Assembly: GCA_041500405.1 (NCBI GenBank) | Contig: JBGQMB010000001.1 | Coordinates: 1-64,000 of the forward strand | DNA from: Candidatus Micrarchaeia archaeon | Lineage (GTDB): Archaea; Micrarchaeota; Micrarchaeia; Anstonellales; J096 | Length of the DNA: 64,000 nt | Direction: 5' to 3' | Translations under genes and position numbers: made by a program | Part shown: positions 1,893 to 24,325 of the stretch, piece by piece | How positions within the stretch are numbered: the first letter of the stretch is position 1 | How the letters are laid out: each line of letters opens with the position of its first letter | Notes under the pieces: generated by a model | The model's input: only the letters and a program-made list of their open reading frames with translations | Told to the model about the DNA's origin: nothing | Database searches by the model: none

Positions 1893-2966
1893 TCAGCCGC
1901 ACTGCGCCGCTGCCCCGGCGTCCCCTGCGCCGGTATATCCAAATCCGGCAGAAGGCGTTATGCTTGATAGCGAGGCGCTGCACTCAGACGGCGCAACGTT
2001 GAATGCGCTGCAAATGGATGCAAGCATAGATGCCGAATCCCTTCCGGAAGAGGCTGTCACGCCGTTTATGACCAGCGTCGGGCTTCCTCCCACGCCATAA
2101 AGGTTGTTCTCCAATAGGTCTATCGGGTATATCGGGTAGTATCCGCTGAGCCAGTTTGCCTGGTCGTTGAATAGCCCGGTTATGTTGTATGCCGCATCCG
2201 TTGCGTTGATGCATGTGTTAAGCGATGCTGCATTCACTCCGGTGCTGGCAACGCATCCCGAAGCATTGCTTTCGTTGAGGAAGCACGCCAGGTATGGCAC
2301 GAACTTGTCGTTCTGCTCCTTCTGGATGCAGTATTGCCTCGTGTTTTCCTCTATCTCCTTCCAGCCGTGCATCGCGTAGTAAACGAACTTCACGCTGAAG
2401 TTTATCCTGTCTTTCAGGGCTTCCGCAGCGGGCAGCATTCCCTTTTCGGCCTGCGTCCCGTACGGGCAGTAGCTCATTACGAAAAGCTCAACAGTCGGCT
2501 TGTCGCTCTTTGCGACTTTGGCCGTCGTGTTCGCAGTTGAGTTGGAGCCTGCCAGGGACGCCTCTATCGTCTTTGAATAATTTATTATGTCTATAGGAAA
2601 CTCCTGTGCGGTATCCATTATGCTTATGTACTTGTTTGTCTTTGAGAAGATGACCTTTGCAGTTGTGCCGGTTCCCGTGTCAAGGGCAAGCACCTCTATA
2701 AGGCCGTCGCCATCAACCTTTGCGCTTTGGTAAACCAGCGTTATGTTGGAGCCGGTGAGCGCGCTTATCCTGTTGAATGCGTCAATCTGCGCCTTAAGCG
2801 CCGTTTCGTTTATCACATAAGTGTCATTAGCTACGGCTACGCCGCCTGCAGGCGGGGAAAACACAACATACCCTATCCCTATGCCCACGGCGAGGAAGAG
2901 CACGGCTATCACTGCCAGCGCCACTGTGCCGGTGCCACCTACAGCTGCAACAATAGAATTATCCAT
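1893..2966 (-). CDS. Membrane-anchored thioredoxin/DsbA-fold protein (monothiol CPYG)
   Basis: N-terminal TM; VELFVMSYCPYG and GSPTLVING motifs; GGTGA RBS before ATG 2966. Confidence 0.75.
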   Translation of the reverse strand: MDNSIVAAVGGTGTVALAVIAVLFLAVGIGIGYVVFSPPAGGVAVANDTYVINETALKAQIDAFNRISALTGSNITLVYQSAKVDGDGLIEVLALDTGTGTTAKVIFSKTNKYISIMDTAQEFPIDIINYSKTIEASLAGSNSTANTTAKVAKSDKPTVELFVMSYCPYGTQAEKGMLPAAEALKDRINFSVKFVYYAMHGWKEIEENTRQYCIQKEQNDKFVPYLACFLNESNASGCVASTGVNAASLNTCINATDAAYNITGLFNDQANWLSGYYPIYPIDLLENNLYGVGGSPTLVINGVTASSGRDSASMLASICSAFNVAPSECSASLSSITPSAGFGYTGAGDAGAAAQCG

Positions 2967-3077
2967 AACATTTTCACCTTTCCCCATATACAACTGAAAT
3001 GTTTAAAAAAGGCGCGGCGGCGCGATGCTTTTTTAAACGGTTCGACTGATTGGAAATCCAGCAATATAGGTGATATA

Positions 3078-3617
3078 ATGGCGGTAGACATAGGTTCTTT
3101 GGCAGTAGGGCTATTGATAGCCATATTGCAGGTTATAGTCGGCCTCGCGCTCTCGATGGCGGCGGTATACTTGGGAATGAAGATGTTCGACAAGCTTACC
3201 AAAGGCATTGAGGAGATGAGGGAGATACAGAAGGGCAACGTCGCAGTCGGCATACTGATGATAGCGGTCATCCTGTCAATCGCGACGGTTGTGAAGGCTG
3301 GGGTGCTGAGCCTTGTGCTGAGCATAAACCCGAGCGTTGGCATGCAGGCAATGGTGCTTGCAATCCTCGTGGGCCTCTTCAACCTCGTCATAAGCGTTGT
3401 TGTTTCCATAATCGCGATTTATCTCGCAATAAGGATTGCTGAGAAGATAACGGTGGAAATCAACTTCATGAAGGAGATACAGAAGGGCAACGTCGCAGCG
3501 GCGGTAGTGCTGGGCGGCATCCTCTGGGCGGTTTCCTTTGTGCTAAGCGCGACAGTGGAAAGCGTGGCGAACTTCTTGGACGCAAGGGTGCTCGCATCCA
3601 TGATTGGGGTCGGCTAG
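3078..3617 (+). CDS. DUF350-like membrane protein with internal duplication
   Basis: Two EIQKGNVA motifs each between TM helices; GGTGA RBS before ATG 3078. Confidence 0.75.
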   Translation: MAVDIGSLAVGLLIAILQVIVGLALSMAAVYLGMKMFDKLTKGIEEMREIQKGNVAVGILMIAVILSIATVVKAGVLSLVLSINPSVGMQAMVLAILVGLFNLVISVVVSIIAIYLAIRIAEKITVEINFMKEIQKGNVAAAVVLGGILWAVSFVLSATVESVANFLDARVLASMIGVG

Positions 3618-3643
3618 GCCCCAACGCCTTTCTTTTTTAATTT

Positions 3644-4540
3644 ATGAGGCTGGACAACGCGTCATTTTTGGCTCCGATAGCCGAATACTCCAATCTTCCA
3701 TTTAGGCTAATGTGCCTTGAGAACGGCGCAGATTATGCATTGGTTCCGCTTGTCAGCGCGATTGCGATAAGGCATTTCCCTGATTTGGTGAATAGGATAG
3801 ACCTTTCGGAAACTGAGAAGGGAAAGACCGGAATCCAGGTCTTCGGAAAGGAGCCGAAGGACTTCAGCAACGCGATAGAAAAGATAAGGGACAAGTTCCC
3901 TTTTGCGGAATGGTTCGACATAAACTGCGGCTGTCCCATGCAAAAAGTGACAGCAAGCGGAGGCGGCTCCACGCTTCTCAGAAGCCCTGAACATATAGCA
4001 AGGATAATCAAGGAATGCAAAAAGCACTGCAGGACCGTTTCAGCAAAAGTCAGAATCCTAAAAAGCCCTGAAAAAACGCTCAAGGTCTGCAAGGCCGTTG
4101 AGAAAGCCGGGGCGGATTTCATAACCGTGCACGGCAGGACCCCTGAGCAGGGCTATTCCGGCAAGGCCGATTGGGGTGCGATAAAGGCGATAAAGAAAAG
4201 CCTTTCAATCCCGGTAGTGGGGAACGGCGACATAACCGACGTTTTCCAAGGCAGGTCTCTTGTTGAGCAAGGCTGTTGCGACGCATTCATGGTCGCAAGG
4301 GCGGCAATGTCAAACCCATACGTTTTCAGCGGAAAGGACGCGAAAGGTTTCATTGCCAGAAAGGAAATCCTGCTTGGCTATATCGGAAGGTGCGAAAGCC
4401 TCGGCAAGATGGATGTTGTGGATGTGAGGCAAAAGGCGCTTTTCTTCATGCGCGGCTTTCCCGAAAGCGCGGAAATGAGGAATGCGATATCCAGGTTCAA
4501 GAAGATAGACGAGATAACGGGGCTTCTTGAGTCGTATTGA
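3644..4540 (+). CDS. dus: tRNA-dihydrouridine synthase
   Basis: LAPIA, DINCGCP, TVHGRT, VGNGDI, MVARAA motifs. Confidence 0.92.
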   Translation: MRLDNASFLAPIAEYSNLPFRLMCLENGADYALVPLVSAIAIRHFPDLVNRIDLSETEKGKTGIQVFGKEPKDFSNAIEKIRDKFPFAEWFDINCGCPMQKVTASGGGSTLLRSPEHIARIIKECKKHCRTVSAKVRILKSPEKTLKVCKAVEKAGADFITVHGRTPEQGYSGKADWGAIKAIKKSLSIPVVGNGDITDVFQGRSLVEQGCCDAFMVARAAMSNPYVFSGKDAKGFIARKEILLGYIGRCESLGKMDVVDVRQKALFFMRGFPESAEMRNAISRFKKIDEITGLLESY

Positions 4541-5374
4541 CTATTTTATCAATTGTTCCGATTCCTCAACCAGCCTTGACGCCCTGTTTCCCGGTATGCC
4601 CAGCGCGATTAGCTCGCTTTCGCCCTTTTCAACTATTTCCTTTACAAGCAGGATTTCCGCGCGGTCAAGCAGCGAAAACGATGTCTTGTCAAGCGACTGC
4701 AGGACCGTTATCGGATAGAGCTTGTTTTCCTCTACCCTTATCTGCAGGCTCTCATCCCTGGGAAAGCTCCATCCAAGAAGCTTAAGCCCGATGCAGTCGG
4801 AATACTGTATCACATCAATGGAGAATTTTGTGTTTGTCACAAGCCACATTGAGTCTATGTCCGGGCTTGCCTCCCTTATGTCAAGGAACCTTGCCCAGCA
4901 GTAGAGCGCGGTCTGTATGCGGCAAAGCGTTCCCATGGCGTTGTGGAACTTGCACTCCACCGCGGCCCTTGTCGCGGGCCTACCGTTCATCGCCGGCCTT
5001 TCGGCTATGACGTCAATCTCATGGTTTATGCACCTGCCGTTCAGGTTCTGCCTCAGCTTTGTCGAGTATCCCCTGCCCTTGAGCATCGCGCCTATGAAAG
5101 TCTCGAATGGATATCCTTCAGGCCCCAGCTTGAAAAGTGCGGCCTTTAGGCTGAATTTTGAAGCAATCTTCTTGTTTATTTGTTTAAGCTCCCTGAACGC
5201 TATTGCGTAAATCTCCTTTGTTGTCATGCCGGGCTTGAGGACGGAGAAGACCGCGTCAGAGACCTCGCCAGCTTCGGACGCGCTGGCGCCGGACTTTCTC
5301 AGCGACGACTGGAGCTTGTTCGGGTCGAACGGCTCGGTTGTTCCGTCCCCTTTTGTTATCAAAATCTCCTTCAT
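4541..5374 (-). CDS. ATP-cone + Mrr-like PD-(D/E)xK endonuclease-domain protein
   Basis: N-terminal ITKGDGTTEPFDPNKLQSSL (ATP cone); GYPFE, HEIDVIAE, VECKFHN, VTNTKFS. Confidence 0.8.
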   Translation of the reverse strand: MKEILITKGDGTTEPFDPNKLQSSLRKSGASASEAGEVSDAVFSVLKPGMTTKEIYAIAFRELKQINKKIASKFSLKAALFKLGPEGYPFETFIGAMLKGRGYSTKLRQNLNGRCINHEIDVIAERPAMNGRPATRAAVECKFHNAMGTLCRIQTALYCWARFLDIREASPDIDSMWLVTNTKFSIDVIQYSDCIGLKLLGWSFPRDESLQIRVEENKLYPITVLQSLDKTSFSLLDRAEILLVKEIVEKGESELIALGIPGNRASRLVEESEQLIK

Positions 5375-5406
5375 CGTTTTTACCTTGTTTGGAAAGCAAT
5401 AAAAGG

Positions 5407-5796
5407 TTATATATTTCTTAGCCATTCCGAGTCCCGTGAAAGCGCAAGATTCGCGATTTCATCCTTTGCGACCCACTTGAAGCCCGAAAATTCCGCTGAA
5501 ACCGAAACCCTGGCGCTTTTTGCGCTTACTCTGAAAACCATTGCCGGAATCCATGCCTTCCTTTTCCTTGAGCCGGCGTTGTGCCTGCCTTCCAACGCTA
5601 TTTCATGGACCTGCGCGTCTATGCCTGTCTGCGACCTGAATGAGCTGGTCAAAATGGAAACAGGGTCTTCGCCCGCCATGACAAGCGCGCACGGAAGCCC
5701 GAACTTTTCCTTTCCATTCGCGTCATTCCGCACAAGAAGCAGGACCCTGCCATTGTCCTCCAGCATTCCGCACGCGAGCATCGAAGGCTTTGCCAT
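5407..5796 (-). CDS. Nudix-fold protein with degenerate Nudix box
   Basis: RVLLL, FGLPC..GEDP..QTGI, FKWV pattern; the RExxEE residues are absent. Confidence 0.65.
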   Translation of the reverse strand: MAKPSMLACGMLEDNGRVLLLVRNDANGKEKFGLPCALVMAGEDPVSILTSSFRSQTGIDAQVHEIALEGRHNAGSRKRKAWIPAMVFRVSAKSARVSVSAEFSGFKWVAKDEIANLALSRDSEWLRNI

Positions 5797-5812
5797 AAGA
5801 AACAACCAGAAG

Positions 5813-5887
5813 TAGCGGGAGGTGGATTTGAACCACCGATCTCCGGGTTATGAGCCCGGCGGGCACTCCAAGCTACCCTACCCCGCT
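5813..5887 (-). tRNA. Initiator tRNA-Met(CAT)
   Basis: AGCGGGG 5' end with A1-U72, three G-C pairs in anticodon stem (CCGGG-CT-CAT-AA-CCCGG), TTCAAAT T-loop. Confidence 0.95.
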
Positions 5888-5972
5888 GCGCAAAGACATT
5901 GTTCGTGGCAAATATATTTAAAGCGAACGCACGCCCGAAATGTTTAAATTGGAATTACGCAAACTGTAGAGC

Positions 5973-8900
5973 ATGGGTCCTTGCAGTAAACCATTCATAG
6001 CCCTCGGAATTCTTCTTTTGGCCATTGGGGCCGGCTTTTGCGCGGATGACCTCGGCTCGCCGATAGGCAGGCCGTGGCAATACAGCTCGTGGAACGAGTA
6101 CACGTTCACGTTCTTTGGCATGCAAATAGTGAATCCTGATGCCATGGATCCTATGCTTGCGGGCATGATACAAAAAAGCCTTGACAAGGGGAATATGGAC
6201 GCAAAGGCGCTCGGGCTTGCCAACTCTTACGAGGCCTTGCTTGCATCCGCGGTCAAGGATAGGGTGAAGTGCGGCGTTTTCTTCAGGTTTGACGAAGACA
6301 ACAACGTGAACGTTGACACCGTGATAATGGGGAACGCAAGGAGCTCGATGGACAGCGAGAGCGACGCAAAGTTCCTCTACAACAATCCGGATTGCGCCGA
6401 GCTTCTTGGCATGAGGGGCGTTAAGGAGACGTACGAGGAGGACAATGAGACAAAGACGCGCTATTACATAACGGACATTTCCGAGGCAAAACTGTCATTC
6501 TCCGCGTCCTCCATAGCCGCCTTTTCCAAGCTGATAGGATATGTGAACATGAATGACTACACCAGCAGCGAAGAATCCAGCAGCGCAGACCAAATCCTGC
6601 TTCTTGCCGTGCAGAAGGGGTTATTCAACCTTGACCAGGCGCTTAGGGACGAGCTTTATCTGATTTCCTTGCTCGAGTCGGCGCATGCTTGCATAAACTA
6701 CAATGGGGAATTCCTCAACTCCACCGAATACCTTCTCCAAAACTACGATTATTCGGCAAACATGTCCCGTTCCAACATGACCAGGGTAAGCGACATCTAC
6801 AAGGACCTTGAATTCAAGGGATTCTGCAGCAGGAACTACACCGGCATAGGCTCCCAGCTGTGCAGGCAGCTTGAGTCAGAGGTTTATTCGAACGGAACGG
6901 ACTATTTCACAAGGGCGAACGAGGAAGACGCCAAGCTCAGGAACAGCATAAGCAAGATGCCTGCCAACCTGACGTTCGCAATAAGCGGCATGAGCTATAT
7001 GTGGGCGTTCATATCGTCCAATGCCGGGGTGGAGGCCGAATACAGGCAGAAAAACGACTCTTTCTTCAAGCTCCTGCATGACGAGGAGCAAAAAGCGGAC
7101 TCAAACAAGGAGGCGCTTGACAAGGAAACAGCGAAGCCGAAAGCCGAAAAACTGGACGAGATAACCGAGATATACGTTCCGGAGGGCTCGCTGAGCACAA
7201 GCATCGGCGCAATCTCCGCGTCCGAGGCTAGATACGAGGAGGAAAGCAGGAACGCGACAGAGGAGCTTGCAAGGCTGAAACAGCTTGGCGTTGTCAAGGA
7301 CCGTGGCTGGGCAGTGGAGCAATATCAGGGGTATATCGCGCTGAACGCCAGGATGAGCGAGGCCATAGTCTCTGCAAGGGAGACGCTTTATTACGCGCAG
7401 GTCACCGTCAACTACACAAGGTCGCAGGCAGTTTTCATAGCGGAGCAGAAGGCGGCGCAGGGATACAATGTGTCGTTCATATACGACCAGGTGAAGAAGG
7501 GCGACAATGCGACAACGCTCGGAAGCAGGTTTACATTTTACAAGGCCGCGTATCTTTTTGCCCTGTCTCTCTCGGCGCCGAATCCTACGCAGAACCAAAC
7601 CGAAACGCTTGCGGCACTGAAGGCCGAAGTAAGCTCCATGCTGGCCAAGGCAAAGACGGACGGGATAGACGTGTCCTCGGAGCAGGCGAAGTTCGACCTT
7701 TACAAGAATGACGCGAACCTGGTTTTGGCAATAGAGCAGATGAATAACATAAAGGACAGCATCATCCAAAAGGCGCGGGCATCTTTTTCAGATTTGCAGT
7801 ACACAAGGGCAAGGCTGGTCCGCTATTTCGAGGCGGACAGGCAGGGAGTCCTGGATGACATCAGGAACGAGCTTGCAGGGTATGAGGCAGGCCTGATATC
7901 TGGATCTTCCATAGATTACGGGGCCGCGCTCGGAAAGCTCACAGCCCTTAGGGCAAACTATGCAGCCATAGAGAATAAAATAAAGGATGCGCTCGGCTCC
8001 TACCTCAGCTCTGCAATGGTCCCTGAGGTGGAATACGCCCCGCCGGTCGTTGAGATAAACGAGATGTCGTCTGTTTCAGGAACAATAATCATAGAGAATC
8101 CGCTTTCTGATGCTGTTGACAACGTTAACATAAGGTTCACGCCGCCGCTTCCGCTTGAGCCAAGCGAAATATTTGGCATAGTCGCCAAAAAATCCGGAGG
8201 CGACATAGTGTTCACGATACCGAGGCTCGAGCCGCTGGAAATAAAGACGTACGAATTCAGGAAGCAGGGCATCTTCGCAAAAGGCACTCTCATGGCAACC
8301 AATACGGAAGGAGATGGCGGAACAGCACACATCACCGAAAACTGGCTTGTGGAAGTGTCCATTCCACTTGACGGTCTGATAATGGGAGATTACGACAGCG
8401 CAATGTTCAACGGAGTTGAATACCCAAGCGGAACAGTGGCAAAGCCGATTGTGGTGGGGACTTACGAGGCGGCGGCTAAAAAATCCCAGGAAGATGCATA
8501 CAGCATGTCGGAGAGGCAGTCGACCTCTGAGAGCAGCCAGGCAACAATAATCCAAAGGACAATCCACGTGGTTCCAACAATGTATTTCGACACGATATTG
8601 CTGCGCAAGGAAGCAGGGTGCAGCGTGAACAGCTCGTCCTATGCGTACACGCAATCCCAGCAGCAGGTGGTGCTGCAAAAAGTCAGGAATGAAGGGGACA
8701 TCGTTTTGACCTGCACTTATTCCAAAGACACTGTACACGATACAATAGATGACCTTATTGACGACATAACCGGAAGCAACCTCAGCACGCAGGAGCAGCA
8801 GAGGCTTGACAACGTAACCATCATGCTCAGCCTTGGCCAGAACTCCACCGCGCTTTCGGAACTGCTTCTGCTCAACAGGACCGTTGCCATGAGGCTCGAA

Positions 8901-10038: not shown

Positions 10039-10602
10039 ATGGAAGACAAGATTTATGATGAATTTACAAGAATGTTTACTCTCGTAGGGAATTCTAGAAG
10101 AGAGCTAAGAACAAAGATAATACAGGAATTTCTTTCCGAAAAAGGAGGATACTGGAAAGATAATATCAAGCACGTAACCCGCTATCGGTATTATGTAGAG
10201 AAATTGGCAGACGGAAGGAGAATATTTCTATATCGCCCCACATTCCTGAATAAGGGAATAGATTTTCAGGTCTGGATTGAGCAATTTGAGGATGGCAAGG
10301 ACAAGAAACCAAGCCATAAGGATATACTGAACGACCTAAAATTAAAACAGAAAGAAAATCCAAAGAAGTACCGGATGCTGCTTAAATCTATACAATGCAT
10401 CTGGAATTGCGAAGATCCAGATGCCATAATTGAAAAGTTTGAGAGTCTATCTTTCAGAAAAGGTTATCCGGTGGATTTGATATTGAAAACTCTTAAATGG
10501 CTCTTCATAGAACAAGACGTAACATACTGGAATTATGATGGGCGCGGCATGCTGATGTCTACGATATATAAAGATAACCCGAAGATAGAGCAATCCCCAT
10601 AG
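10039..10602 (+). CDS. Hypothetical protein, partner of Dam-like methylase (candidate endonuclease)
   Basis: 187 aa, AT-rich, directly upstream of the MTase; no motif recognised with certainty. Confidence 0.6.
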   Translation: MEDKIYDEFTRMFTLVGNSRRELRTKIIQEFLSEKGGYWKDNIKHVTRYRYYVEKLADGRRIFLYRPTFLNKGIDFQVWIEQFEDGKDKKPSHKDILNDLKLKQKENPKKYRMLLKSIQCIWNCEDPDAIIEKFESLSFRKGYPVDLILKTLKWLFIEQDVTYWNYDGRGMLMSTIYKDNPKIEQSP

Positions 10603-10675
10603 GCGTTGACCTCTGCTGGCAAGGAGGTCAGTAAACAATTTAAAAGGGGGCAACCAATATCCTTTCGTGCAGTAA

Positions 10676-11563
10676 ATGGATCTACCAAAACCCTTTGTGA
10701 AATGGGCTGGCGGGAAAAGGCAGCTAATAGAACAGTTGATTCAGTATGCGCCTTCTCACTTTAATGGTTATTTTGAGCCATTTTTGGGCGGTGGCGCATT
10801 CTTTTTCAAACTTTCATCCTTAGGGAGAATAAACAAAGCTTACCTAAACGATTCCAATGAAGAGCTAATCAATGCATATAATGTAATTAAGGAAAATCCA
10901 TTACATCTCATCTCTGAACTAGAAAGCGGTTCGTACAAAAACAACAAAGAGACATTTATAAATATAAGAAAAACACACCCCACGAATACTATAAAAGCGG
11001 CAGCAAGATTTATTTATCTAAATAAGACAGCATTCAATGGGCTGTACAGAGTCAATTCCAATGGCCAATTCAATGCTCCTTTTGGCCGTTATAATAATCC
11101 ATTAATCTGTGATGAGGACAATATACTGGCGGTAAGCCGGGCATTGCAGAAAGATGAGCTGACCTGCATGGATTTTGAAGACGCAGTTAATGATGCCGAA
11201 GAAGGCGATTTGGTATATTTTGATCCGCCTTACGCTCCGCTTAATGCAACATCTAACTTTACAGGATATACTAAAGACAGTTTTTCAGAAAAAGATCAAG
11301 AGAAGCTTGCCAAAACGTTCTCGAAATTAGACCGCAGAGGTTGCTTTGTCATGCTCAGTAATTCATATACACCACTAGTGCTGGATCTATATGATGAATT
11401 CAAGGTAAACACCGTTATGGCATCCAGAGTTATAAACTGTAAAGCGGAGCGCAGAGGAAAGATAAAGGAAGTTATCGTGACTAATGATTACTTACAGGCA
11501 ATCCCAAAAAGCTTAATGGCATACGTTTGCGCTAAGGGAGATATCGGCACTTCATCCGTTTAA
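10676..11563 (+). CDS. dam: Dam/DpnM-like N6-adenine DNA methyltransferase
   Basis: KWAGGK, YFEPFLGGGA, LND, FNGLYRVN, YFDPPY, MLSNS motifs. Confidence 0.93.
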   Translation: MDLPKPFVKWAGGKRQLIEQLIQYAPSHFNGYFEPFLGGGAFFFKLSSLGRINKAYLNDSNEELINAYNVIKENPLHLISELESGSYKNNKETFINIRKTHPTNTIKAAARFIYLNKTAFNGLYRVNSNGQFNAPFGRYNNPLICDEDNILAVSRALQKDELTCMDFEDAVNDAEEGDLVYFDPPYAPLNATSNFTGYTKDSFSEKDQEKLAKTFSKLDRRGCFVMLSNSYTPLVLDLYDEFKVNTVMASRVINCKAERRGKIKEVIVTNDYLQAIPKSLMAYVCAKGDIGTSSV

Positions 11564-12600: not shown

Positions 12601-12701
12601 TGGGGATACGGGGATTTGAACCCCGACCTACAGGTTTCTTCTAATCGCGCGTCCGCGCAAAACCTGGAGCCTGCCGTGCTACCTGGTTGCACTATACCCC
12701 C
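12601..12701 (-). tRNA. tRNA-Trp(CCA) with ~28-nt intron at 37/38
   Basis: GGGGGTA/TATCCCC acceptor; GCAGG-CT-CCA-G [GTTTTGCGCGGACGCGCGATTAGAAGAA] A-CCTGT; TTCAAAT. Confidence 0.9.
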
Positions 12702-12837: not shown

Positions 12838-14034
12838 ATGGTTAATTCGGCAAAAGGCAATAACGGCAAAATCAATCCGACAGTAATAAAGCTCGGTGTG
12901 GTCAGTTTCCTGACCGACATTTCCAGCGAGATGGTCTTTCCCAACATAGCGCTCTTCCTTACGCTTGTGCTTGGCGCGGGCAAGGAGCTGGTCGGCCTGG
13001 TTGAGGGCGTCGCGGACAGCGCCGCGAGCATCGTCGAGATATTCTCCGGCTACTTTTCAGACAAGCTCGGAAAAAGGAAGCAGTTCGTACTGTTTGGATA
13101 CGGCCTTTCCTCAATAGTCAAGATAGGCATCGCGCTTTCCACCACCTGGTGGATGGTCCTAATAATGCGCGGGCTGGAGCGCGTAGGCAAGGGCATACGG
13201 ACTGCGCCAAGGGACGCGATAATCGCCGCATCTGCAGAAAAGCAAATCCGCGGCAGGGCATTCGGCCTGCACCGCGCGATGGACACTGCAGGCGCGATAA
13301 TAGGCCCGCTGCTGGCGTTCGCGCTGCTCTCTGCATTCGGCACGAACGAAACAGGGTTCCGCACCACATTCCTGATAGCGATAATACCCGCGGTCCTGGC
13401 GGTTGCCGTGATAGCGCTGTTCGTGCGCGAGCCCAAGGTTGCAACAGCCCCGGCCCCTTTGAAAAGGCCGTCCTTCTGGGATGTGCTGAAGCAAATGCCG
13501 CATGGATACAAGACGTTCCTTAAAGTTTCGCTGCTGTTCTCGCTCTCCTATTTCAGCTTTTCGTTCTTCATATTGCGCGCAGCCGACATAGGCGTGGATC
13601 CCAAGGATGTCCTGCTGCTCTATGTTTTCTATAATGTCATATACGCGCTTGCGTCTGTGCCAGGCGGGTGGCTGTCCGACAGGATAGGGCGCAAGCCGGT
13701 GATTGCAGGCGCGTTCGCGCTCTATGCTATCATTTGCGCTGGCTTTGCCTTGGCTACCACCTGGTGGCACGCGGCGCTGCTGTTCGGGCTTTACGGCATC
13801 TTCGTGGCTTTGGACGAGAGCGTGAACAAGGCATACATCAGCGACATGATACCCGAGGAAAGGCGCAGCACAGCGATAGGCGCGTATAACACGGCCATAG
13901 GCGTCGCATATCTTCCGGCAAGCATAATGGTCGGCGCATTGTGGACCGTTGCCGGGCCGGTTACCGGCTTTATGGCAGCAGCGGGCATAGCGGCATTTTC
14001 GGCAGTGGCCCTGATGGCCTTTGTCAGGGGCTGA
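12838..14034 (+). CDS. MFS transporter
   Basis: GYFSDKLGKRK and GWLSDRIGRK motif A in both halves; 12 TM. Confidence 0.92.
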   Translation: MVNSAKGNNGKINPTVIKLGVVSFLTDISSEMVFPNIALFLTLVLGAGKELVGLVEGVADSAASIVEIFSGYFSDKLGKRKQFVLFGYGLSSIVKIGIALSTTWWMVLIMRGLERVGKGIRTAPRDAIIAASAEKQIRGRAFGLHRAMDTAGAIIGPLLAFALLSAFGTNETGFRTTFLIAIIPAVLAVAVIALFVREPKVATAPAPLKRPSFWDVLKQMPHGYKTFLKVSLLFSLSYFSFSFFILRAADIGVDPKDVLLLYVFYNVIYALASVPGGWLSDRIGRKPVIAGAFALYAIICAGFALATTWWHAALLFGLYGIFVALDESVNKAYISDMIPEERRSTAIGAYNTAIGVAYLPASIMVGALWTVAGPVTGFMAAAGIAAFSAVALMAFVRG

Positions 14035-14037
14035 AAT

Positions 14038-15063
14038 TCAAATTTTCCTTGACCCGTTTTTTGTTTCGGTTTTTGCTTTCAGAAGTTGCGCAGCTACAGG
14101 GAAATAGTCCACCTTGTGCTCTTCATAGACATGGAGCATTTCGTAATCCCCGGCAACATCGCCGAAGCGGTTCATGAAGTCCCCCATCATGGACCGGAAA
14201 TCCCTTTCGTCGCTAACCTCTGCCTCTATTTCCAAGTCCCATTCGCCGAAGCAGCCCACGAAATAGACGACTTCCGGTCTCAATGCGCAGAATGAATAGA
14301 TAGTTTTCTCGTCCTTTTCCCCAAGGGATTTTGCGCTGACGATTGCCTTGTAGAATTTCCTGCCTGTTTTCTCCAGGTCCATGATTGTGCGGTATGCCTG
14401 TATTATGCCGTCTTTCTCAAGCTTCCTTATTCTCTCCTTTACCGCCCCATCGCTCATGCCAATTGTCTGCCCAAGTTCGCGGTTTGGCAGCCGGGCATTC
14501 CTGCCAAGGAGCTCCAGCAGCCGCAGGTTAGTTTCGTCCAGCTTGTATGGCCCGTACTCAAAGCCATAGACGAACGTTTCAGGGGGCATTTCCCTTTCTT
14601 CTCCTGTGAGATAGGTCCTCTTGAAGTGGTAGTTGAACGTTGAGGGCGAAACAGAATAGCTTTTCAGCCGCTCGCCAAGCTCAGCCTTGATTTTTCTTAG
14701 GATGTTGCTGAAATCAACCGGGTTCCTTGCCGCCAGGAGAATCTCCAGGTCCCACCTGCCGCTTGTGCTTGCCACCCACATGGACGGCACCTCGCCCTTG
14801 AGATATTCTATTATCTTCGGATAGTCTGACGGAGGGGCTTTCTGCAGCCGCAGATAGAGCCTGTATGAGTAATATCCGAGCTTATGCAGATTGATCAGGG
14901 CAGTGAAACCCTTTATCACCCCGGCTTCAGTCAGCTTATTGAGCCGGTATTTGGCGAGTTGAGGCGAAATCCCGACCTTTTTGGCAAGGACAGCAAGGGG
15001 AATCCGGGCATTGAAGTCCAGTTCGGCGAGCATCCGGAAGTCCTTCTTATCGAGCTTTTCCAT
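14038..15063 (-). CDS. Double-length Lrp/AsnC-family transcriptional regulator
   Basis: Two wHTH+RAM units (LDKKDFRMLAELDFNARIP...; LDETNLRLLELLGRNARLP...), each with GxWD; start MEKLD at 15063. Confidence 0.88.
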   Translation of the reverse strand: MEKLDKKDFRMLAELDFNARIPLAVLAKKVGISPQLAKYRLNKLTEAGVIKGFTALINLHKLGYYSYRLYLRLQKAPPSDYPKIIEYLKGEVPSMWVASTSGRWDLEILLAARNPVDFSNILRKIKAELGERLKSYSVSPSTFNYHFKRTYLTGEEREMPPETFVYGFEYGPYKLDETNLRLLELLGRNARLPNRELGQTIGMSDGAVKERIRKLEKDGIIQAYRTIMDLEKTGRKFYKAIVSAKSLGEKDEKTIYSFCALRPEVVYFVGCFGEWDLEIEAEVSDERDFRSMMGDFMNRFGDVAGDYEMLHVYEEHKVDYFPVAAQLLKAKTETKNGSRKI

Positions 15064-15184
15064 GCTTGTTTTATATTTAGTAGTTTTTATAAGCTTTTCT
15101 ACTTTTTCTAAAAAAATAGGACTATATTGTTTTATATATATCAAAAGCCACGTATAGACACAGGTAAACACAAATGAGGCGATT

Positions 15185-15712
15185 ATGATGACCATGAATA
15201 CCCGGATGCTGGCTTTGAAAGCTGAACGCCTGGAAAAAAAGACGAGAAAATTTGGGATGTCGCATCATTCGATGCTCTTCAATGAACCACTCGTAGAGTT
15301 GAAGCGGGACCTACAGATAAGGCAGGGTATGAAGGATAGCTTTGAGGCTGTCAAAACAAAAGTTTCCCCGGTCGATACAGGTGTAGATAACGGAGTATGT
15401 AAAGGTAAAGGACTTGAGTTCTGGCTGAAAAATTCCCCGACGGGGATTGCCCTTTGCAATGCCTTACCAAAGCAGGCTACCATTCTGGGGAGTGTTTTAA
15501 GTGCTATCCTGGTTGCAGAAATGGCAATATGGTCTATTGTTCCGGAAGCTGTACAAACAATTACAGGCATATATGGAGTTCCAACCAAGTTACTCTGGTT
15601 CTATGAAAATTTTCCTCCAATAGTAGTAACATGCCTTTTTGGGATGTTCACCTCGGCTTTTGCTGGGTGTACAGCCGCAGCGTTCCGTGACGAAGCGATA
15701 AGAGACAAATAA
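15185..15712 (+). CDS. Hypothetical membrane protein with shared MMTMxTRMLAxKAER leader (copy 1)
   Basis: GAGGCGA RBS; two hydrophobic segments; leader shared with next ORF. Confidence 0.7.
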   Translation: MMTMNTRMLALKAERLEKKTRKFGMSHHSMLFNEPLVELKRDLQIRQGMKDSFEAVKTKVSPVDTGVDNGVCKGKGLEFWLKNSPTGIALCNALPKQATILGSVLSAILVAEMAIWSIVPEAVQTITGIYGVPTKLLWFYENFPPIVVTCLFGMFTSAFAGCTAAAFRDEAIRDK

Positions 15713-15728
15713 CACAGATGAGGCGATT

Positions 15729-16640
15729 ATGATGACTATGAAAACAAGGATGCTTGCCCGGAAGGCTGAGCGCGAAATGAACAAAGCGTACAAGCTCGGC
15801 ATGGAGTGGGGCGGAGATTTCCTCAGGCAACTGCGCGACGAACTAAGGGCATTCAAGGTGGATGTCGATAAGGATGATTCTGACACGCGCAGCCCAAGCG
15901 AGATCCACCGCGCTAGATGCTACACCCACGTATGCAACATCTTGCATACGACGGAAAGCACCAAGGAAGCAATCGCAAAATCCATCGATAGCACGGTTGG
16001 GATACTGGAGGATGCGGCAAAGAAGCGCGGCGAACTACAGGAGGGACAGCGCGAAATGTGCGTGGTCTCATACAGGCCTTACAGGTACGAGTGCGAACTC
16101 AAAGTATGTGGCATAAGCAAGGCCGAATTCTGGTTAATGAAGGCAGCGGGCGCAACTCGCAAAACCCTGCTGCCATGTGCGGCAACAGCAGCCATGGCAT
16201 GGCTTGCTTGTGAGAACTGGCCTGCAATAGCGCATGCTGCAACTTCGGCAACAAATCACATCGTAGACATAGCAGTAGCGGCAAAGGCATATCTTGCAAA
16301 AAATATAAGGGAGATTGCAACAGTAGCGGCAGGTTTCGTTATTTTTATGACTATTATAGTTGGAGGGAGAAGCCGGCCTGAGCAGGAGATGTCAGACAGT
16401 GAACTGCTCTTCGCAGCGGTCCACGACATGAGGGTAGGGATGGAGAGGGCGCTGAGGGAGCAAGATAGGAAGTGTGAGGAAAGCGTGGAAGCATGGCGGG
16501 TCGTTCACATGTTTAAGTATCTAATTCCTGCCGAAGAGATGAAGGCGAAGGTCCTGAAAGCGGCAGAGGAAATGCTGGCAACGGTAAATATGATTGAGGC
16601 TGCAGTAAAAGAGCAGCTGCAGCCGGCCAGGAAGATTTGA
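15729..16640 (+). CDS. Hypothetical membrane protein with shared leader (copy 2)
   Basis: Same RBS and leader; two hydrophobic segments; charged helical termini. Confidence 0.7.
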   Translation: MMTMKTRMLARKAEREMNKAYKLGMEWGGDFLRQLRDELRAFKVDVDKDDSDTRSPSEIHRARCYTHVCNILHTTESTKEAIAKSIDSTVGILEDAAKKRGELQEGQREMCVVSYRPYRYECELKVCGISKAEFWLMKAAGATRKTLLPCAATAAMAWLACENWPAIAHAATSATNHIVDIAVAAKAYLAKNIREIATVAAGFVIFMTIIVGGRSRPEQEMSDSELLFAAVHDMRVGMERALREQDRKCEESVEAWRVVHMFKYLIPAEEMKAKVLKAAEEMLATVNMIEAAVKEQLQPARKI

Positions 16641-16653
16641 AGAGGCGATTATT

Positions 16654-18375
16654 ATGGAAATGCAGATGAAGAAATTGGAGATAACGCGCCTTTCCAAAAC
16701 GACATTCCCGATAATGAGTCCGCAAAATGCAGGCAGGATGGTTGAAAACAACTTGAGGATAGACAATATCTTCGCATCGGGCAGGGCGGCTGACCCGCTG
16801 GTTGCGGGGGAGCTTGACGAACTGAAAAAGGAAAGCCTGCACCTGCTGACGATAATGTATCCTCCGAAGGCCTGCAACTTCAAATGCCCGAACTATTGCT
16901 GCACGGAAGGCATCGACAAGGGCAGGCTGGACAACGGGCAGATCCTGGAAATCGTCAGGCAGGCAACCGAGCTGGGCATGAAAGTGACGTACTTTCCCGG
17001 CCTTGGCGAACTGCCCCTGCTGAAGAAATTCTGGGAACTCCAGGAAGAACTTCATAGGATGAGGATAGCTTCAGTCGTGTTCACAAACGGCAGCGCGTTC
17101 TGGGACGACGGGCTGGCAAGGACCGCTACAGGGAAGAGCGCCGAGGAGCTTATAGAGAAGGTCAATGAAATAGGGATGTATCTCTATGTGAAATACTGGC
17201 ACTCTGACCCGAAGGAGGCGGCAAGGATGGTTGGCGTTAGGGAAAGCGAGTATCCGTACAAAACGCTGGCGGACGGCATGCGCATCCCGCTTGCGCTCGC
17301 GAGACTGATGGAACGCATGTCTAAAGACAGGCTCGGCGTCGAGGTGATGGTTTCGCGGGAAAATTACGGCGACGTGGTTGCGAACATCATGCCCAATATA
17401 GAAAAACTTGGCCTTTATGGACTCATGGAGCCGGTCATATTCTCAGGAAAGGCCGAGGGAAGGCAGGCAGAGCTGGCGCTCACGCCGGAGCAGTATTCAT
17501 CGCTCGCAGACCAGTTCATAAGCGGCGGGAAATGGTGCATAAAAAGGCAGTCGCGGGAAGCGTCGCTTGTCGGAGAAAACCTGCTGCTGGCAATGCTGCT
17601 GCCGCCGGCACAGGAGAACCGCGTGCTGGACAACAGCGGAGCGCTGAAGCCTATTCTCGGCATACTGCATGGGCCAGAAGCCAGAAGGATAAGGGCAGAC
17701 AACGACAGGTACGGCTGCGTTTGCAGGCACTATTTTCTTGAGAAGCAGAAGGAGAGAAGGATGGACGAACTTTTCGGCGCCTTTGCGCCTGACTACATCG
17801 TTCACATGGACAGAACGAACCACTCTGCAGTCCAGAAAAGAATAATGGACGGGTTTATCGGCCACATAGGAAAGAAGGTCCTTGACATAGCGACCGGACC
17901 GGGCACAATCGCGAAATACGTGAAGGGAGCAAAGTCGGAATGCGAGGTGCACGGAATTGACAGGAACGAAAAGATGCTCATAGAGGCGACAAAAGACCCT
18001 CAGGGGGTGGAATTCAAGAAAGGCGAGGCCACAGCCCTGCCGGCCAAGGACGGGACTTACGACACCGTAACTTCGTCCTATGCGTTCTATTGGATAAAGG
18101 ATCCGGAAAAGGCGATCTCGGAAGTCGGACGGGTGCTGAAAACAGGCGGAACGTTCATCGTGCTTGAAGAGGAGTTCAACGGCGGGGACACACAACCGGT
18201 CTTCTCCAGATACGACCGGGCAGACCTGAAGGAACTTGCCGGTCTGGAGAACTACATCGGCGTGGCACGCGTAAGGCAGATGATAGAGGCAGCAGGTTTT
18301 GAGTTTGTGGAGCAAGTGCAGTATCCGGTTGACGAACGCCACGGCACAGCAGGGATGGCTTTCAGGAAGAGATAA
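16654..18375 (+). CDS. Radical-SAM domain fused to class I SAM methyltransferase
   Basis: CNFKCPNYCC, PGLGE, VFTNG radical-SAM core; C-terminal VLDIATGPG, GID, YDTV, GRVLKTGG. Confidence 0.8.
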   Translation: MEMQMKKLEITRLSKTTFPIMSPQNAGRMVENNLRIDNIFASGRAADPLVAGELDELKKESLHLLTIMYPPKACNFKCPNYCCTEGIDKGRLDNGQILEIVRQATELGMKVTYFPGLGELPLLKKFWELQEELHRMRIASVVFTNGSAFWDDGLARTATGKSAEELIEKVNEIGMYLYVKYWHSDPKEAARMVGVRESEYPYKTLADGMRIPLALARLMERMSKDRLGVEVMVSRENYGDVVANIMPNIEKLGLYGLMEPVIFSGKAEGRQAELALTPEQYSSLADQFISGGKWCIKRQSREASLVGENLLLAMLLPPAQENRVLDNSGALKPILGILHGPEARRIRADNDRYGCVCRHYFLEKQKERRMDELFGAFAPDYIVHMDRTNHSAVQKRIMDGFIGHIGKKVLDIATGPGTIAKYVKGAKSECEVHGIDRNEKMLIEATKDPQGVEFKKGEATALPAKDGTYDTVTSSYAFYWIKDPEKAISEVGRVLKTGGTFIVLEEEFNGGDTQPVFSRYDRADLKELAGLENYIGVARVRQMIEAAGFEFVEQVQYPVDERHGTAGMAFRKR

Positions 18376-21842: not shown

Positions 21843-22604
21843 GTGGCGCCTGCAAAAAAGGCAGAAAAAAGCGAAAAGGCCAATGACGGCAACGGAGGGG
21901 TATGCACAATGCTCAAAAAATACATTCAGATGTTCCCGTTCGTGAGGAAGGAGCTGGGCGAGCTTGCGGCAAACCCGAACAAGGCAATGCCCAAGGAGAT
22001 AGAAAACTCGACGGCAATCCGCGGCCTGAAGGACGCGGCAATCTCCGCATTCGTCTTTTCCACAGTCATGTCGCTTTTCTGGATTATATTTAGCATGCGG
22101 ACCCTTCTGCCGGCGCTGGCGGCGATGCCCTTGGTCGTGGTTGGCATGGTGATAAGCGTATACGCAATTTCGCTTGTCGCGACGATTTTGTTAAACATTG
22201 TGCTTGAGCTGATTCCGACTGCCTGCGTGTATTATCTCATAGCAAAAGTCTTGGGCGGCAAGGGCTCATTTGGAAAGACCTTGGGAATGCTCAGCACGAT
22301 ATCGGCGCCTAGAAACCTCCTGCTCATCGCACTGCTTGTGATTTCGGGCATACTGATGGCGATTGTCAACACGTTCCTGGGAAGCCTTTACACAATCGCA
22401 TACATACTGGTAATTCTGGGCGGCACTGCGCTGGCGTTCTTCCAGCTTTACCTCAACTACAAGATGGTCAGGATGCTCCACGGCCTTTCAAGGGGCAAGT
22501 CCGTTGTGGTTGTCGCGATTCCGCCTTTGATGGCGATTGCAGTTGTGATGGCGCTTGTGTCATGGATAATTTCCATCGTTGCGTCCATAATGCCCGCCGC
22601 CTAG
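21843..22604 (+). CDS. Yip1-family membrane protein (paralog 1; start 21843 GTG or 21909 ATG)
   Basis: YIQMFPFVRK, AKVLGGKGSFGKT, LHGLSRGKS. Confidence 0.75.
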   Translation: MAPAKKAEKSEKANDGNGGVCTMLKKYIQMFPFVRKELGELAANPNKAMPKEIENSTAIRGLKDAAISAFVFSTVMSLFWIIFSMRTLLPALAAMPLVVVGMVISVYAISLVATILLNIVLELIPTACVYYLIAKVLGGKGSFGKTLGMLSTISAPRNLLLIALLVISGILMAIVNTFLGSLYTIAYILVILGGTALAFFQLYLNYKMVRMLHGLSRGKSVVVVAIPPLMAIAVVMALVSWIISIVASIMPAA

Positions 22605-22653
22605 GCGCGCGGGCCCGTTTCCATTTTTAAATTTTTCCTATCCAGCGTAGGCT

Positions 22654-23367
22654 ATGGCAGACAATTCTTGGGTTGTTGGTCTTAAGGACCTGATAAGGAA
22701 ATACATTATGATTTTCCCGTTCGTGAGGAAGAAGGAATTCACAGAAATAATAATAAACCCGGATTCCGCGATCCCGAACGAGATAAAGACGTCCTCGATA
22801 GGCAAGGGATTCAAGGATGCAGTGGTGCCCTACCTTTTCATCGTCATCATAGGGTCCGTAATCAGCGCTTTGATAAGCATTGCAATGTCTGCGGCCGGAC
22901 TTGGCGCTGCCGGGATTGTGAATACGGTAATATCAAGCGCCATCCAGTTCGTAATCGCGCTGGTCATCGCCCCCATTTTCCTTGCGGTTGCGCTGTTCCT
23001 GACAGCGGCGCTGTATTTCATCCTGGCAAAGGTGCTTGGCGGAAAAGGCAGTTTCGGGAAGACGATGGGCATGCTCGGCACCATAGTGGGCCCGATATGC
23101 CTGCTCAACATAATAACCAACATTTTGAGCGTGATACCGCTGGTTGCATGCATAGCGGCCATACCGGCGCTGGCAATAAGCATATACTGCCTTTACCTTA
23201 ACTTCAGGATGGTCAAGGCGCTGCACAGCCTGGATGATATTAAGGCGGCGGTGGTCGTAATAATACCGATACTGCTGGCGATTGCGCTTACCATTGCCGT
23301 GATAGCGGTGATGGCATCCATGCTGGGAATGGCGGCATACACGCAGGCATTGCCGTCCACGGGCTGA
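22654..23367 (+). CDS. Yip1-family membrane protein (paralog 2)
   Basis: YIMIFPFVRK, AKVLGGKGSFGKT, LHSLDDIKA. Confidence 0.8.
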   Translation: MADNSWVVGLKDLIRKYIMIFPFVRKKEFTEIIINPDSAIPNEIKTSSIGKGFKDAVVPYLFIVIIGSVISALISIAMSAAGLGAAGIVNTVISSAIQFVIALVIAPIFLAVALFLTAALYFILAKVLGGKGSFGKTMGMLGTIVGPICLLNIITNILSVIPLVACIAAIPALAISIYCLYLNFRMVKALHSLDDIKAAVVVIIPILLAIALTIAVIAVMASMLGMAAYTQALPSTG

Positions 23368-23433
23368 ACCGGGATACATTTAAAAGTCTTTCCGGGCATG
23401 GATTGCACTTAGCGTTGACAATTGGGTGATTAT

Positions 23434-23547
23434 TTGGGCTCAAAACCAAGAAAATGGAAGAAGAAAGGCAAAATGAGATGGAAATGGATAAAGAAGAGAA
23501 GAAAAAGGCTCAAGAGAAAGCTTAAGAGAAGGGTCGGCGAGCTTTGA
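23434..23547 (+). CDS. rpl41e: Ribosomal protein L41e (eS32), long archaeal form, TTG start; absent from ORF track
   Basis: Translates (M)[44 protein letters not shown] upstream. Confidence 0.88.
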
Positions 23548-23596
23548 AGTTGCGTCGGACCCTCATTTTTTAAACATTTACTGCGCAAAACAGAAT

Positions 23597-24325
23597 ATGG
23601 CAGAGAATTCCCTGATTATTACGCTGAAGGACTGGACAAGGAAATACATAATGCTTTTTCCGTATATTAGGAAAAAGGAATTCGCTGGTATGGTAACCAA
23701 CCCTGATTCCGCAATCCAGGCCGAGGTAAATTCAGCCTCAGCGTTGAAAGGGGTTGGTGATGCCATACTTTCGTTGTGGCTATACATAATAACAAAGTCT
23801 TGTTTTGTTATAGTTTTGTTCCTTGCGGCAGTCATCATATCAGCTTTTGCCAGCAGAGCAGCAGGCGTCGCAAGCACATATAGCAGCGGAGAATTAATGG
23901 GCCCAATCGCAACCCTAGTTTTGAATTCAGCCAGTGCGCTCGTAATCTTGCCTTTTTTACTGGCCATTGGACTGTTTATTGCGGCCGTCATATATTTTGT
24001 TGTCGCGAAGATACTCGGCGGAAAGGGAAGCTTCGGCAAGACGATGGGAATGCTCGGCACCATAGCAGGCATCGTATTCCTGCTCACGATAATACCAGAC
24101 ATTTTGTGCATTATTCCATTTGGTATATTGATAGCGGCTATACCATTATTGGCCGTATTGATTTTCGCCCTTTACCTCAATTTCAAGATGATCCAGAGCC
24201 TTCACGGACTCAGCGGCATCAAGGCAGCGGCCGTGGTGGTAATATCGTTGCTGATAATAACCGCTCCATTTATCCTTGCCGGAGCCGTGCTGTTAATGCT
24301 ATTATTCAATTTTGCACATATGTAA
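23597..24325 (+). CDS. Yip1-family membrane protein (paralog 3)
   Basis: YIMLFPYIRK, AKILGGKGSFGKT, LHGLSGIKA. Confidence 0.8.
   Translation: MAENSLIITLKDWTRKYIMLFPYIRKKEFAGMVTNPDSAIQAEVNSASALKGVGDAILSLWLYIITKSCFVIVLFLAAVIISAFASRAAGVASTYSSGELMGPIATLVLNSASALVILPFLLAIGLFIAAVIYFVVAKILGGKGSFGKTMGMLGTIAGIVFLLTIIPDILCIIPFGILIAAIPLLAVLIFALYLNFKMIQSLHGLSGIKAAAVVVISLLIITAPFILAGAVLLMLLFNFAHM

What the first reader, a model, noticed from the sequence alone, without database searches (positions are those of the whole stretch)
12838..18375. Candidate undescribed modification system: Lrp regulator, leader-bearing pair, rSAM-MTase, adjacent MFS
Seen: three co-directional genes with gaps of only 13-16 nt, all using the same GAGGCGATT translation-initiation sequence. 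They are transcribed divergently from a double-length Lrp/AsnC regulator, whose stop codon lies 3 nt from that of an MFS transporter. The rSAM protein also starts with a Met-rich basic stretch (MEMQMKK). Inference: a regulated unit in which the enzyme modifies the two membrane proteins or a small molecule. The MFS link is positional only. I do not recognise this gene combination.
Basis: inference. Interest (0 to 1): 0.72.

Follow-up and report, generated by a model that had tools for sequence, protein, structure and literature searches.

The report
Lrp-paired radical SAM-methyltransferase cassette
A tiny DPANN archaeon carries a double-length Lrp regulator back to back with a fused radical SAM-methyltransferase gene that likely tailors a small metabolite; the regulator-enzyme pairing recurs in related archaea, whereas the two leader-sharing orphan genes and the transporter beside it do not and are likely passengers.

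Summary
The anatomy is real, but it is three layers, not one system. (1) The conserved unit is a divergent double Lrp plus an unassigned radical SAM enzyme with a CX3CX3C motif. The Lrp is present in 10 of 10 close archaeal loci whose upstream DNA is visible. A dedicated class I methyltransferase follows as a separate gene in 3 of 9 and is fused only here. (2) The two orphans share a duplicated 63-nt 5' segment (25 residues, 68% identical). No related locus holds them (0 of 17), the enzyme lacks their leader, and other orphan pairs with shared N-termini occur without any enzyme. (3) The MFS is a genus-level neighbour, kept in two relatives that show no sign of the cassette. Several loci hold only Lrp plus radical SAM, and bacterial relatives sit with amino-acid ligases, EpmA/LysRS-like domains and exporters. 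Best reading: small-metabolite tailoring (0.55); substrate unknown. One oddity: this copy's C-terminal lobe is selectively diverged. The scan noted this enzyme-regulator pair before on other DNA.

The parts
14038..15066 (-). Double-length Lrp/AsnC regulator (342 aa, two HTH units, each followed by a likely RAM domain); part of the conserved unit
   Evidence: Two HTH_24 and two HTH_AsnC stretches, weak AsnC_trans_reg hit; two Lrp stretches in NCBIfam; start from alignment with G109
15067..15184 (.). Divergent promoter region with a conserved TATA-like element, likely also the Lrp operator
   Evidence: Closely conserved with G109 up to the start codons; TTTTA.ATA element conserved in 5 of 5 aligned regions; function inferred
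15167..15229 (+). 5' segment copy 1 (leader RNA, ribosome site, first 15 codons of orfA); the cassette's native first-gene start
   Evidence: 63-nt repeat; equivalent position starts a large radical SAM gene in G109
15185..15712 (+). orfA, 175 aa orphan, two hydrophobic segments, atypical codon use; likely passenger
   Evidence: No Pfam family; GC3 and CAI in the lowest 2% of 562 genes, hydropathy; only two weak non-self hits (E 0.002 with internal stops, E 0.007) in 100 relatives
15711..15773 (+). 5' segment copy 2, 83% identical to copy 1
15729..16640 (+). orfB, 303 aa orphan, one strong hydrophobic segment; shares residues 1-25 with orfA; likely passenger
   Evidence: 17 of 25 identical; only self in the 5.8-billion search, 0 of 60 relatives, no Atlas hit
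16639..16656 (+). Short third copy of the translation-start segment before the enzyme
   Evidence: 18 nt, 89%
16654..17745 (+). Radical SAM domain of an unassigned family, with a degenerate SPASM/twitch-like C-terminal lobe
   Evidence: Model pLDDT 84.9; fold matches SuiB Z 19.4, MoaA 18.6, SkfB 18.2; 13 stand-alone homologues at 42-53%
16873..16899 (+). CX3CX3C cluster motif (Cys74, Cys78, Cys82)
   Evidence: Invariant in 14 of 14; the three Cys invariant in 42 of 42 of the wider family
17536..17724 (+). Three conserved C-terminal cysteines (Cys295, Cys355, Cys357), predicted auxiliary metal site
   Evidence: Cys in 39, 38 and 39 of 42; geometry not measured
17761..18375 (+). Class I SAM methyltransferase domain, fused in frame; a separate gene in relatives
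   Evidence: Methyltransf_11 E 5.8e-19; 38-43% identical to the separate genes of L011, L013, L038; junction confirmed in other runs
12838..14034 (+). MFS transporter: neighbour only, not part of the cassette
   Evidence: 80-88% identical copies beside the same tRNA in G061 and G401; no relative in 17 family loci

Best explanation
The double Lrp and the radical SAM-methyltransferase form a recurring divergent cassette that likely tailors a free small metabolite, probably amino-acid-like, while orfA and orfB are lineage-specific genes that were likely inserted behind the cassette's promoter and the MFS is an unrelated neighbour. Shown: the pairing, the separate-versus-fused methyltransferase, the three-cysteine motif, the fold class, the duplicated 5' segment, and the absence of orfA, orfB and MFS from related loci. 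Inferred steps: (1) the Lrp binds the 118-nt divergent region and switches it according to an amino-acid-like ligand, substrate or product; (2) the CX3CX3C [4Fe-4S] cluster cleaves SAM and the 5'-deoxyadenosyl radical abstracts hydrogen from the metabolite, with the three C-terminal cysteines holding a second metal site; (3) where present, the methyltransferase methylates the product, and the fusion couples both steps; (4) orfA took over the first-gene position and its 5' end was duplicated in front of orfB, so both are co-regulated but are not substrates.
For: Divergent double Lrp in 10 of 10 close archaeal loci with upstream DNA (11 loci in all; L040 and L041 encode one protein) and 2 of 2 distant ones. 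In 9 of the 10 the enzyme directly faces the Lrp across about 100 nt. Orthologous MTase directly downstream in 3 of 9 loci with downstream DNA; its clade has 19 proteins at E<=1e-30, and three further MTase/enzyme pairs share source and contig length (circumstantial). No precursor-like gene recurs; L040 and L041 show the enzyme alone. Bacterial relatives: fused to an MFS domain between two ATP-grasp/L-amino-acid-ligase genes (L014); after an MTase and a MATE exporter (L128); fused to EpmA/LysRS-like domains (P0034, P0039). MTase fold neighbours are mostly small-molecule enzymes (AtmM, MitM, RebM, phosphoethanolamine MTases), with a Trm112-bound archaeal MTase equally close. SufB/D, NifU-like and MetK genes are present in 5 of 5 carrier genomes tested, so the cell can supply cluster and SAM. 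CX3CX3C has precedent in AprD4 (PMC13707489, passage).
Against: No substrate is shown and no curated family matches (best NCBIfam E 4.8e-15 in 42 members; the window protein scores 27 bits against a cut-off of 380). The top fold matches include peptide maturases (SuiB, SkfB, EpeE) as well as small-molecule enzymes (MoaA, BlsE, viperin), within about 3 Z units. The amino-acid clue rests on 4 bacterial relatives, two from a distant subclade. The double Lrp is promiscuous: 123 of 401 genomes, and only 1 of its 14 closest relatives faces this enzyme family, so adjacency says little about the ligand. No exporter accompanies the archaeal loci (ORF inspection). This copy's C-terminal lobe is unusually diverged (0.36 against 0.56-0.65 mean identity), so it may not do the family reaction.
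Confidence: 0.55

Rival explanations
1. The enzyme modifies a housekeeping macromolecule (a tRNA, a membrane lipid or a cellular protein) that needs no gene in the cassette; the methyltransferase finishes the mark.
For: Lrp plus radical SAM alone is a sufficient unit. The top MTase fold match is a Trm112-bound archaeal MTase. EpmA-like fusions could point to protein modification.
Against: Patchy spread (7 of 401 genomes), a local regulator, and exporter or ligase neighbours in bacteria fit an accessory metabolite better. No tRNA- or lipid-modifying family ranks above the generic radical SAM hits.
Confidence: 0.18
2. This copy is drifting: the cassette lost its original first gene, picked up two orphans, and the enzyme's substrate lobe is decaying, so the locus has little or altered function.
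For: 17 of 112 conserved columns are changed, the most among 14 sequences, 14 of them from residue 294 onward; core identity is normal. The slot is hypervariable in the genus.
Against: The frame is intact, all six conserved cysteines are kept, codon use of the enzyme is host-like, and the fusion is the same in three other runs.
Confidence: 0.12
3. One reading: a RiPP-like system in which the enzyme recognises the shared 25-residue leader and modifies the two membrane proteins.
For: The shared leader is real (0 of 1000 shuffles), the genes are tightly linked, the fold resembles peptide maturases, and the substrate lobe diverged in the one genome that has orfA and orfB.
Against: 0 of 17 related loci carry such genes. 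The shared part includes untranslated DNA, as a duplication predicts. Comparable pairs occur with no enzyme: one on contig C20 of this genome (60% over 30 residues) and one at the same slot in G061. The model's N-terminus has two helices and no three-stranded sheet. No protease gene lies in the unit.
Confidence: 0.07
4. An arsenic-tailoring pair analogous to ArsL plus ArsM, using the three C-terminal cysteines to hold As(III).
For: Radical SAM plus class I MTase layout; three conserved extra cysteines; ArsL binds As(III) through a C-terminal three-cysteine motif (PMC13598754, passage).
Against: The MTase has no invariant cysteine in 4 sequences and scores 46 bits against the ArsM cut-off of 240. 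No ArsL model is among the 25 families shown. No ars genes were seen in the loci (inspection).
Confidence: 0.04

Closest known systems
SPASM/twitch-type radical SAM enzymes (SuiB 5v1s, MoaA 2fb2, SkfB 6efn, anSME 4k38, BlsE 7vob, EpeE 8ai3)
   Same: Partial TIM barrel plus C-terminal lobe; Z 19.4 (rmsd 3.9, 288 aligned) for SuiB, 18.6 for MoaA, 18.2 for SkfB; conserved glycine-glutamate SAM motif
   Different: 12-17% identity; CX3CX3C spacing; only three conserved C-terminal cysteines; no RRE-like sheet in the model; no precursor gene in related loci
AprD4 (apramycin radical SAM dehydratase)
   Same: Non-canonical CX3CX3C motif (PMC13707489, passage) and a small-molecule substrate
   Different: Weak fold match (Foldseek rank 46, TM 0.38); no aminoglycoside genes nearby; the wider family is mostly CX3CX2C, so the spacing likely arose independently
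Lrp/AsnC (FFRP) local regulators with a divergent target
   Same: HTH plus RAM layout, divergent promoter
   Different: Two units in one chain; expanded in this phylum (123 of 401 genomes) with swappable cargo
ArsL plus ArsM (arsinothricin)
   Same: Radical SAM followed by a class I methyltransferase; C-terminal cysteines
   Different: MTase lacks invariant cysteines and is far under the ArsM cut-off; Lrp rather than ArsR (ArsR link recalled)
Prokaryotic viperins
   Same: Barrel core Z 17.1; accessory, patchy gene
   Different: Viperin models match only the N-terminal motif region of two homologues (E 3.7e-6, 3e-10) and not the window protein; extra cysteine-bearing lobe; no kinase neighbour

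Membership tests
Radical SAM superfamily | Canonical CX3CX2C motif | tested here: not met
   CX3CX3C in 14 of 14 close homologues; most of the wider family has CX3CX2C; three cysteines kept in 42 of 42
Radical SAM superfamily | Partial TIM-barrel fold and homology to members | tested here: met
   Z 19.4 to SuiB; 30 of 42 family members match PF04055
Radical SAM superfamily | [4Fe-4S] binding and reductive SAM cleavage | not testable with these tools
   Needs reconstitution, EPR and 5'-deoxyadenosine assay
SPASM/twitch subclass | C-terminal auxiliary-cluster cysteine motif | tested here: inconclusive
   Three cysteines in 38-39 of 42, a fourth in 13 of 42; Pfam SPASM in 1 of 42; nearest Atlas cluster 77% SPASM
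RiPP maturase system | Leader-bearing precursor gene that co-occurs with the enzyme across genomes | tested here: not met
   0 of 17 related loci; enzyme alone in L040 and L041
RiPP maturase system | RRE (PqqD-like) leader-binding domain | tested here: inconclusive
   No Pfam PqqD hit and no N-terminal sheet in the model, but alignments to SuiB and SkfB begin at model residue 19; the N-terminus was not folded alone
RiPP maturase system | Enzyme binds the leader | not tested
Class I SAM methyltransferase | Rossmann-like fold with SAM-binding motif I | tested here: met
   Methyltransf_11 69 bits; fold matches E about 1e-13
UbiE/MenG | Curated model cut-off | tested here: not met
   70 bits against 158
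ArsL/ArsM pathway | ArsM with conserved arsenic-binding cysteines, above model cut-off | tested here: not met
   No invariant cysteine; 46 bits against 240
Viperin | Full-length match to viperin models | tested here: inconclusive
   No pVip hit for the window protein, partial hits in two homologues; fold Z 17.1, within 3 units of the top
Lrp/AsnC | AsnC-type HTH | tested here: met
   Two stretches, 84 bits
Lrp/AsnC | RAM ligand-binding domain and amino-acid binding | tested here: inconclusive
   PF01037 21.9 bits against cut-off 25; ligand binding not testable here

The most novel reading that the evidence does not exclude
The cassette is a synthase-receptor signalling module of DPANN archaea, functionally like LuxI/LuxR: the radical SAM-methyltransferase makes a new modified amino-acid signal, the double Lrp reads it, and in this lineage two orphan membrane proteins were wired in as outputs while the fused enzyme's remodelled substrate lobe changed the signal.
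Probability: 0.12. Interest if true: 0.8.

Novelty: new variant of a known kind. Interest (0 to 1): 0.38.

Why it matters
DPANN archaea are thought to make few metabolites of their own, yet this one keeps a regulated iron-sulfur radical enzyme of an unassigned family with a rare cluster spacing. The minimal two-gene form and this single-chain fusion make the chemistry directly testable. The locus also shows how the expanded double-Lrp promoters take on new cargo, and it warns that shared N-termini among DPANN orphans are not evidence of RiPP leaders.

Tried and rejected
The wide structural search did not run; only Foldseek and its re-alignment were obtained. No RNA holder was listed, which says nothing on expression. 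No relatives in viral contigs, plasmids (one distant query) or phages (one partial hit, E 2e-6); no sequence match to solved structures. Whole-length paralogy of orfA and orfB: not shown beyond residue 30 (118 of 1000 shuffles). Signal peptide readings of the leader (Sec, Tat, class III; definitions recalled): rejected because no hydrophobic stretch lies within the first 99 residues. Host-delivered enzyme for lack of cofactors: weakened, since Suf, NifU-like and MetK genes are present in 5 of 5 (archaeal-type SAM synthase in 1 of 5). Integration repeats at the cassette ends: none evident among the repeats shown. Link between the window MFS and the MFS fused in L014: no similarity (E 0.18). Defence libraries: only generic HTH and MTase hits. 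Dropped before counting: L015 (E 2e-12, receiver-fused, different architecture) and 31 weak genome hits (E 7.7e-31 or worse). Contexts of most protein-only homologues could not be read.
Full report
Setting. The window is the first 64 kb of contig C1 of a 916-kb, 86% complete genome. A same-order genome carries a Micrarchaeota label (L010; G109), so this is a DPANN archaeon. Holders of the DNA are sediment metagenomes.

Observation. All coordinates, gaps and the shared start sequence are as reported. The motif is a near-complement of the 16S 3' end, but it precedes only these 3 of 678 long ORFs. It is part of a 63-nt segment duplicated between orfA and orfB at 83%, with an 18-nt third copy before the enzyme. 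The Lrp most likely starts at 15066, which leaves a 118-nt divergent region. Contigs from other runs confirm gene order and the in-frame fusion (X2 may be the source of this DNA, X4 and X6 are not so marked).

The enzyme. Pfam sees only the methyltransferase. The N-terminal 364 residues have 13 homologues of 342-364 aa at 42-53% identity, none fused, among proteins of 315-1003 aa. All 14 have CX3CX3C. A profile search reaches a wider family (33 representatives at E<=1e-30) that mostly has CX3CX2C; 30 of 42 aligned members match PF04055. The model (pLDDT 84.9) matches SPASM/twitch-type enzymes without a clear winner: SuiB Z 19.4, MoaA 18.6, SkfB 18.2, viperin 17.1, BlsE 16.7. Three further cysteines are conserved in 38-39 of 42. 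No curated family is approached. In this copy residues 290-358 average 0.36 identity to the 13 homologues, which average 0.56-0.65 among the set, while the core is normal at 0.52.

What travels with it. The family occurs in 7 of 401 genomes of the phylum, own included. I read 11 close archaeal loci, 3 distant archaeal loci and 2 bacterial loci; one genome contributes two contig ends, so one search tested 17 stretches. A divergent double Lrp is present in 10 of 10 close loci with upstream DNA and 2 of 2 distant ones. The orthologous methyltransferase follows as a separate gene in 3 of 9 close loci with downstream DNA (L011, L013, L038); for L039 only about 300 nt are visible. In 401 genomes this MTase clade scored strongly only in the two genomes already in its alignment, the next hit being 3e-34. 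The three distant loci add a B12-type radical SAM gene (B12-binding domain found in 2 of 3; the third is cut) and, in two, a different MTase. orfA, orfB and the MFS have no relative in any of the 17. L040 and L041 have the enzyme alone opposite the Lrp.

The regulator is a platform. Double Lrps match in 123 of 401 genomes, often in several copies. Of the 14 closest to this one (40-51% identity), 5 face a large radical SAM gene, 5 an uncharacterised protein family, 1 another radical SAM, and 3 orphans (by inspection; part was cut); only G109 holds this enzyme family. On a tree of 42 Lrps the 12 that face the family need at least 4 label changes. The window and G109 Lrps lie in one starred clade, and their enzymes group together with moderate support (SH-aLRT 87). 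The promoter and leader RNA are conserved with G109 up to the start codons, where the first gene is a 565-aa radical SAM protein. Inference: orfA occupies the cassette's native first-gene start.

The orphans. orfB finds only itself in the 5.8-billion search and in 60 relatives; orfA has two weak, unconvincing hits in 100 relatives and was not searched in the large collection. They are alike over 25 residues and not demonstrably beyond. The enzyme does not carry their leader. The genome has other orphan pairs that share a basic N-terminus with no radical SAM neighbour, such as the C20 pair. At the same slot before CysRS, G061 has a different tandem pair whose first 116 compared bases are identical, and G401 has two unrelated membrane genes between the MFS and CysRS. 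The slot is hypervariable and 5'-end duplication is a local habit.

The MFS. G061 and G401 keep it at 88% and 80% identity beside the same tRNA. G061 shows no match to the enzyme, the Lrp or the MTase at the thresholds used (92% complete, with a contig break after the MFS). The 3-nt stop-to-stop gap reflects where the cassette landed.

Mechanism. Because the minimal unit has no substrate gene, the substrate must be generally available. The four bacterial contexts point to amino-acid chemistry and export: ATP-grasp ligases flanking an enzyme-MFS fusion, MTase plus MATE, and two EpmA/LysRS-like fusions. Lrp proteins sense amino acids (established knowledge). Five of five carrier genomes tested encode Suf, NifU-like and MetK proteins. 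I therefore commit to radical tailoring of a small, probably amino-acid-like metabolite followed by methylation (0.55). Every chemical step is inferred.

Literature. I saw passages of PMC13707489 (AprD4 has CX3CX3C), PMC13598754 (canonical motif; ArsL cysteine tail), PMC9692996 and PMC3132745 (the string occurs in other senses). Other papers were seen as search listings only. Searches listed no paper whose title or abstract opening describes this family or DPANN double-Lrp cassettes; the library lacks most subscription journals and no supplements were read.

Earlier scan notes. A follow-up on another genome reported the same enzyme-regulator pair with an orphan passenger, and several others report double Lrps facing small-molecule gene sets. 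I had formed this reading before looking. They are unchecked leads and do not enter the score.

Verdict. The proposed four-part system does not hold. What remains is an unassigned radical SAM family in a regulated DPANN cassette, here in a fused form not seen in any homologue examined and with a remodelled lobe: a new variant of a known kind, interest 0.38.

Noticed in passing
window 12601-12701 (-): Intron-containing tRNA, read by eye as Trp (CCA), found by Rfam and missed by ARAGORN.
   Followed up: partly
window 10039-11563 (+): Dam-like DNA methyltransferase with an unassigned 187-aa upstream ORF in a low-GC stretch; G061 has different genes at this slot. Likely a swapped restriction-modification pair.
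   Followed up: partly
L035 (G061, before CysRS): Tandem orphan pair with an identical 5' segment of 116 compared bases and lipoprotein-like N-termini, at the slot that holds the cassette in the window.
   Followed up: partly
G000:C24:7379-9151 (-): MetK match split in two inside an 852-aa frame, probably an intein.
   Followed up: no
G000:C18:3863-6179: Second double Lrp, convergent with a single Lrp and divergent from a methyltransferase-like ORF with a basic N-terminal extension.
   Followed up: no
G000, contigs C1, C2, C6, C8, C9, C19, C32-C36, C45: Many short paralogues, ankyrin-like by eye, with variable basic N-terminal extensions, some shared with unrelated bodies.
   Followed up: no
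P0034, P0039: Radical SAM domain fused to an EpmA/LysRS-like ligase domain; no matching paper was listed in one search. Worth its own follow-up.
   Followed up: partly
L014 45-7463: Bacterial cluster: ATP-grasp ligase, radical SAM-MFS fusion, a secreted-looking protein, a histidine kinase (by eye) and a second ligase; could be a signal synthesis and sensing unit.
   Followed up: partly
L109 (G190) 2201-7970: A close double Lrp faces a radical SAM gene followed by genes that look by eye like NAD salvage enzymes.
   Followed up: no
window 21909-24325 (+): Three tandem paralogous membrane proteins, conserved in G061 and G401.
   Followed up: no
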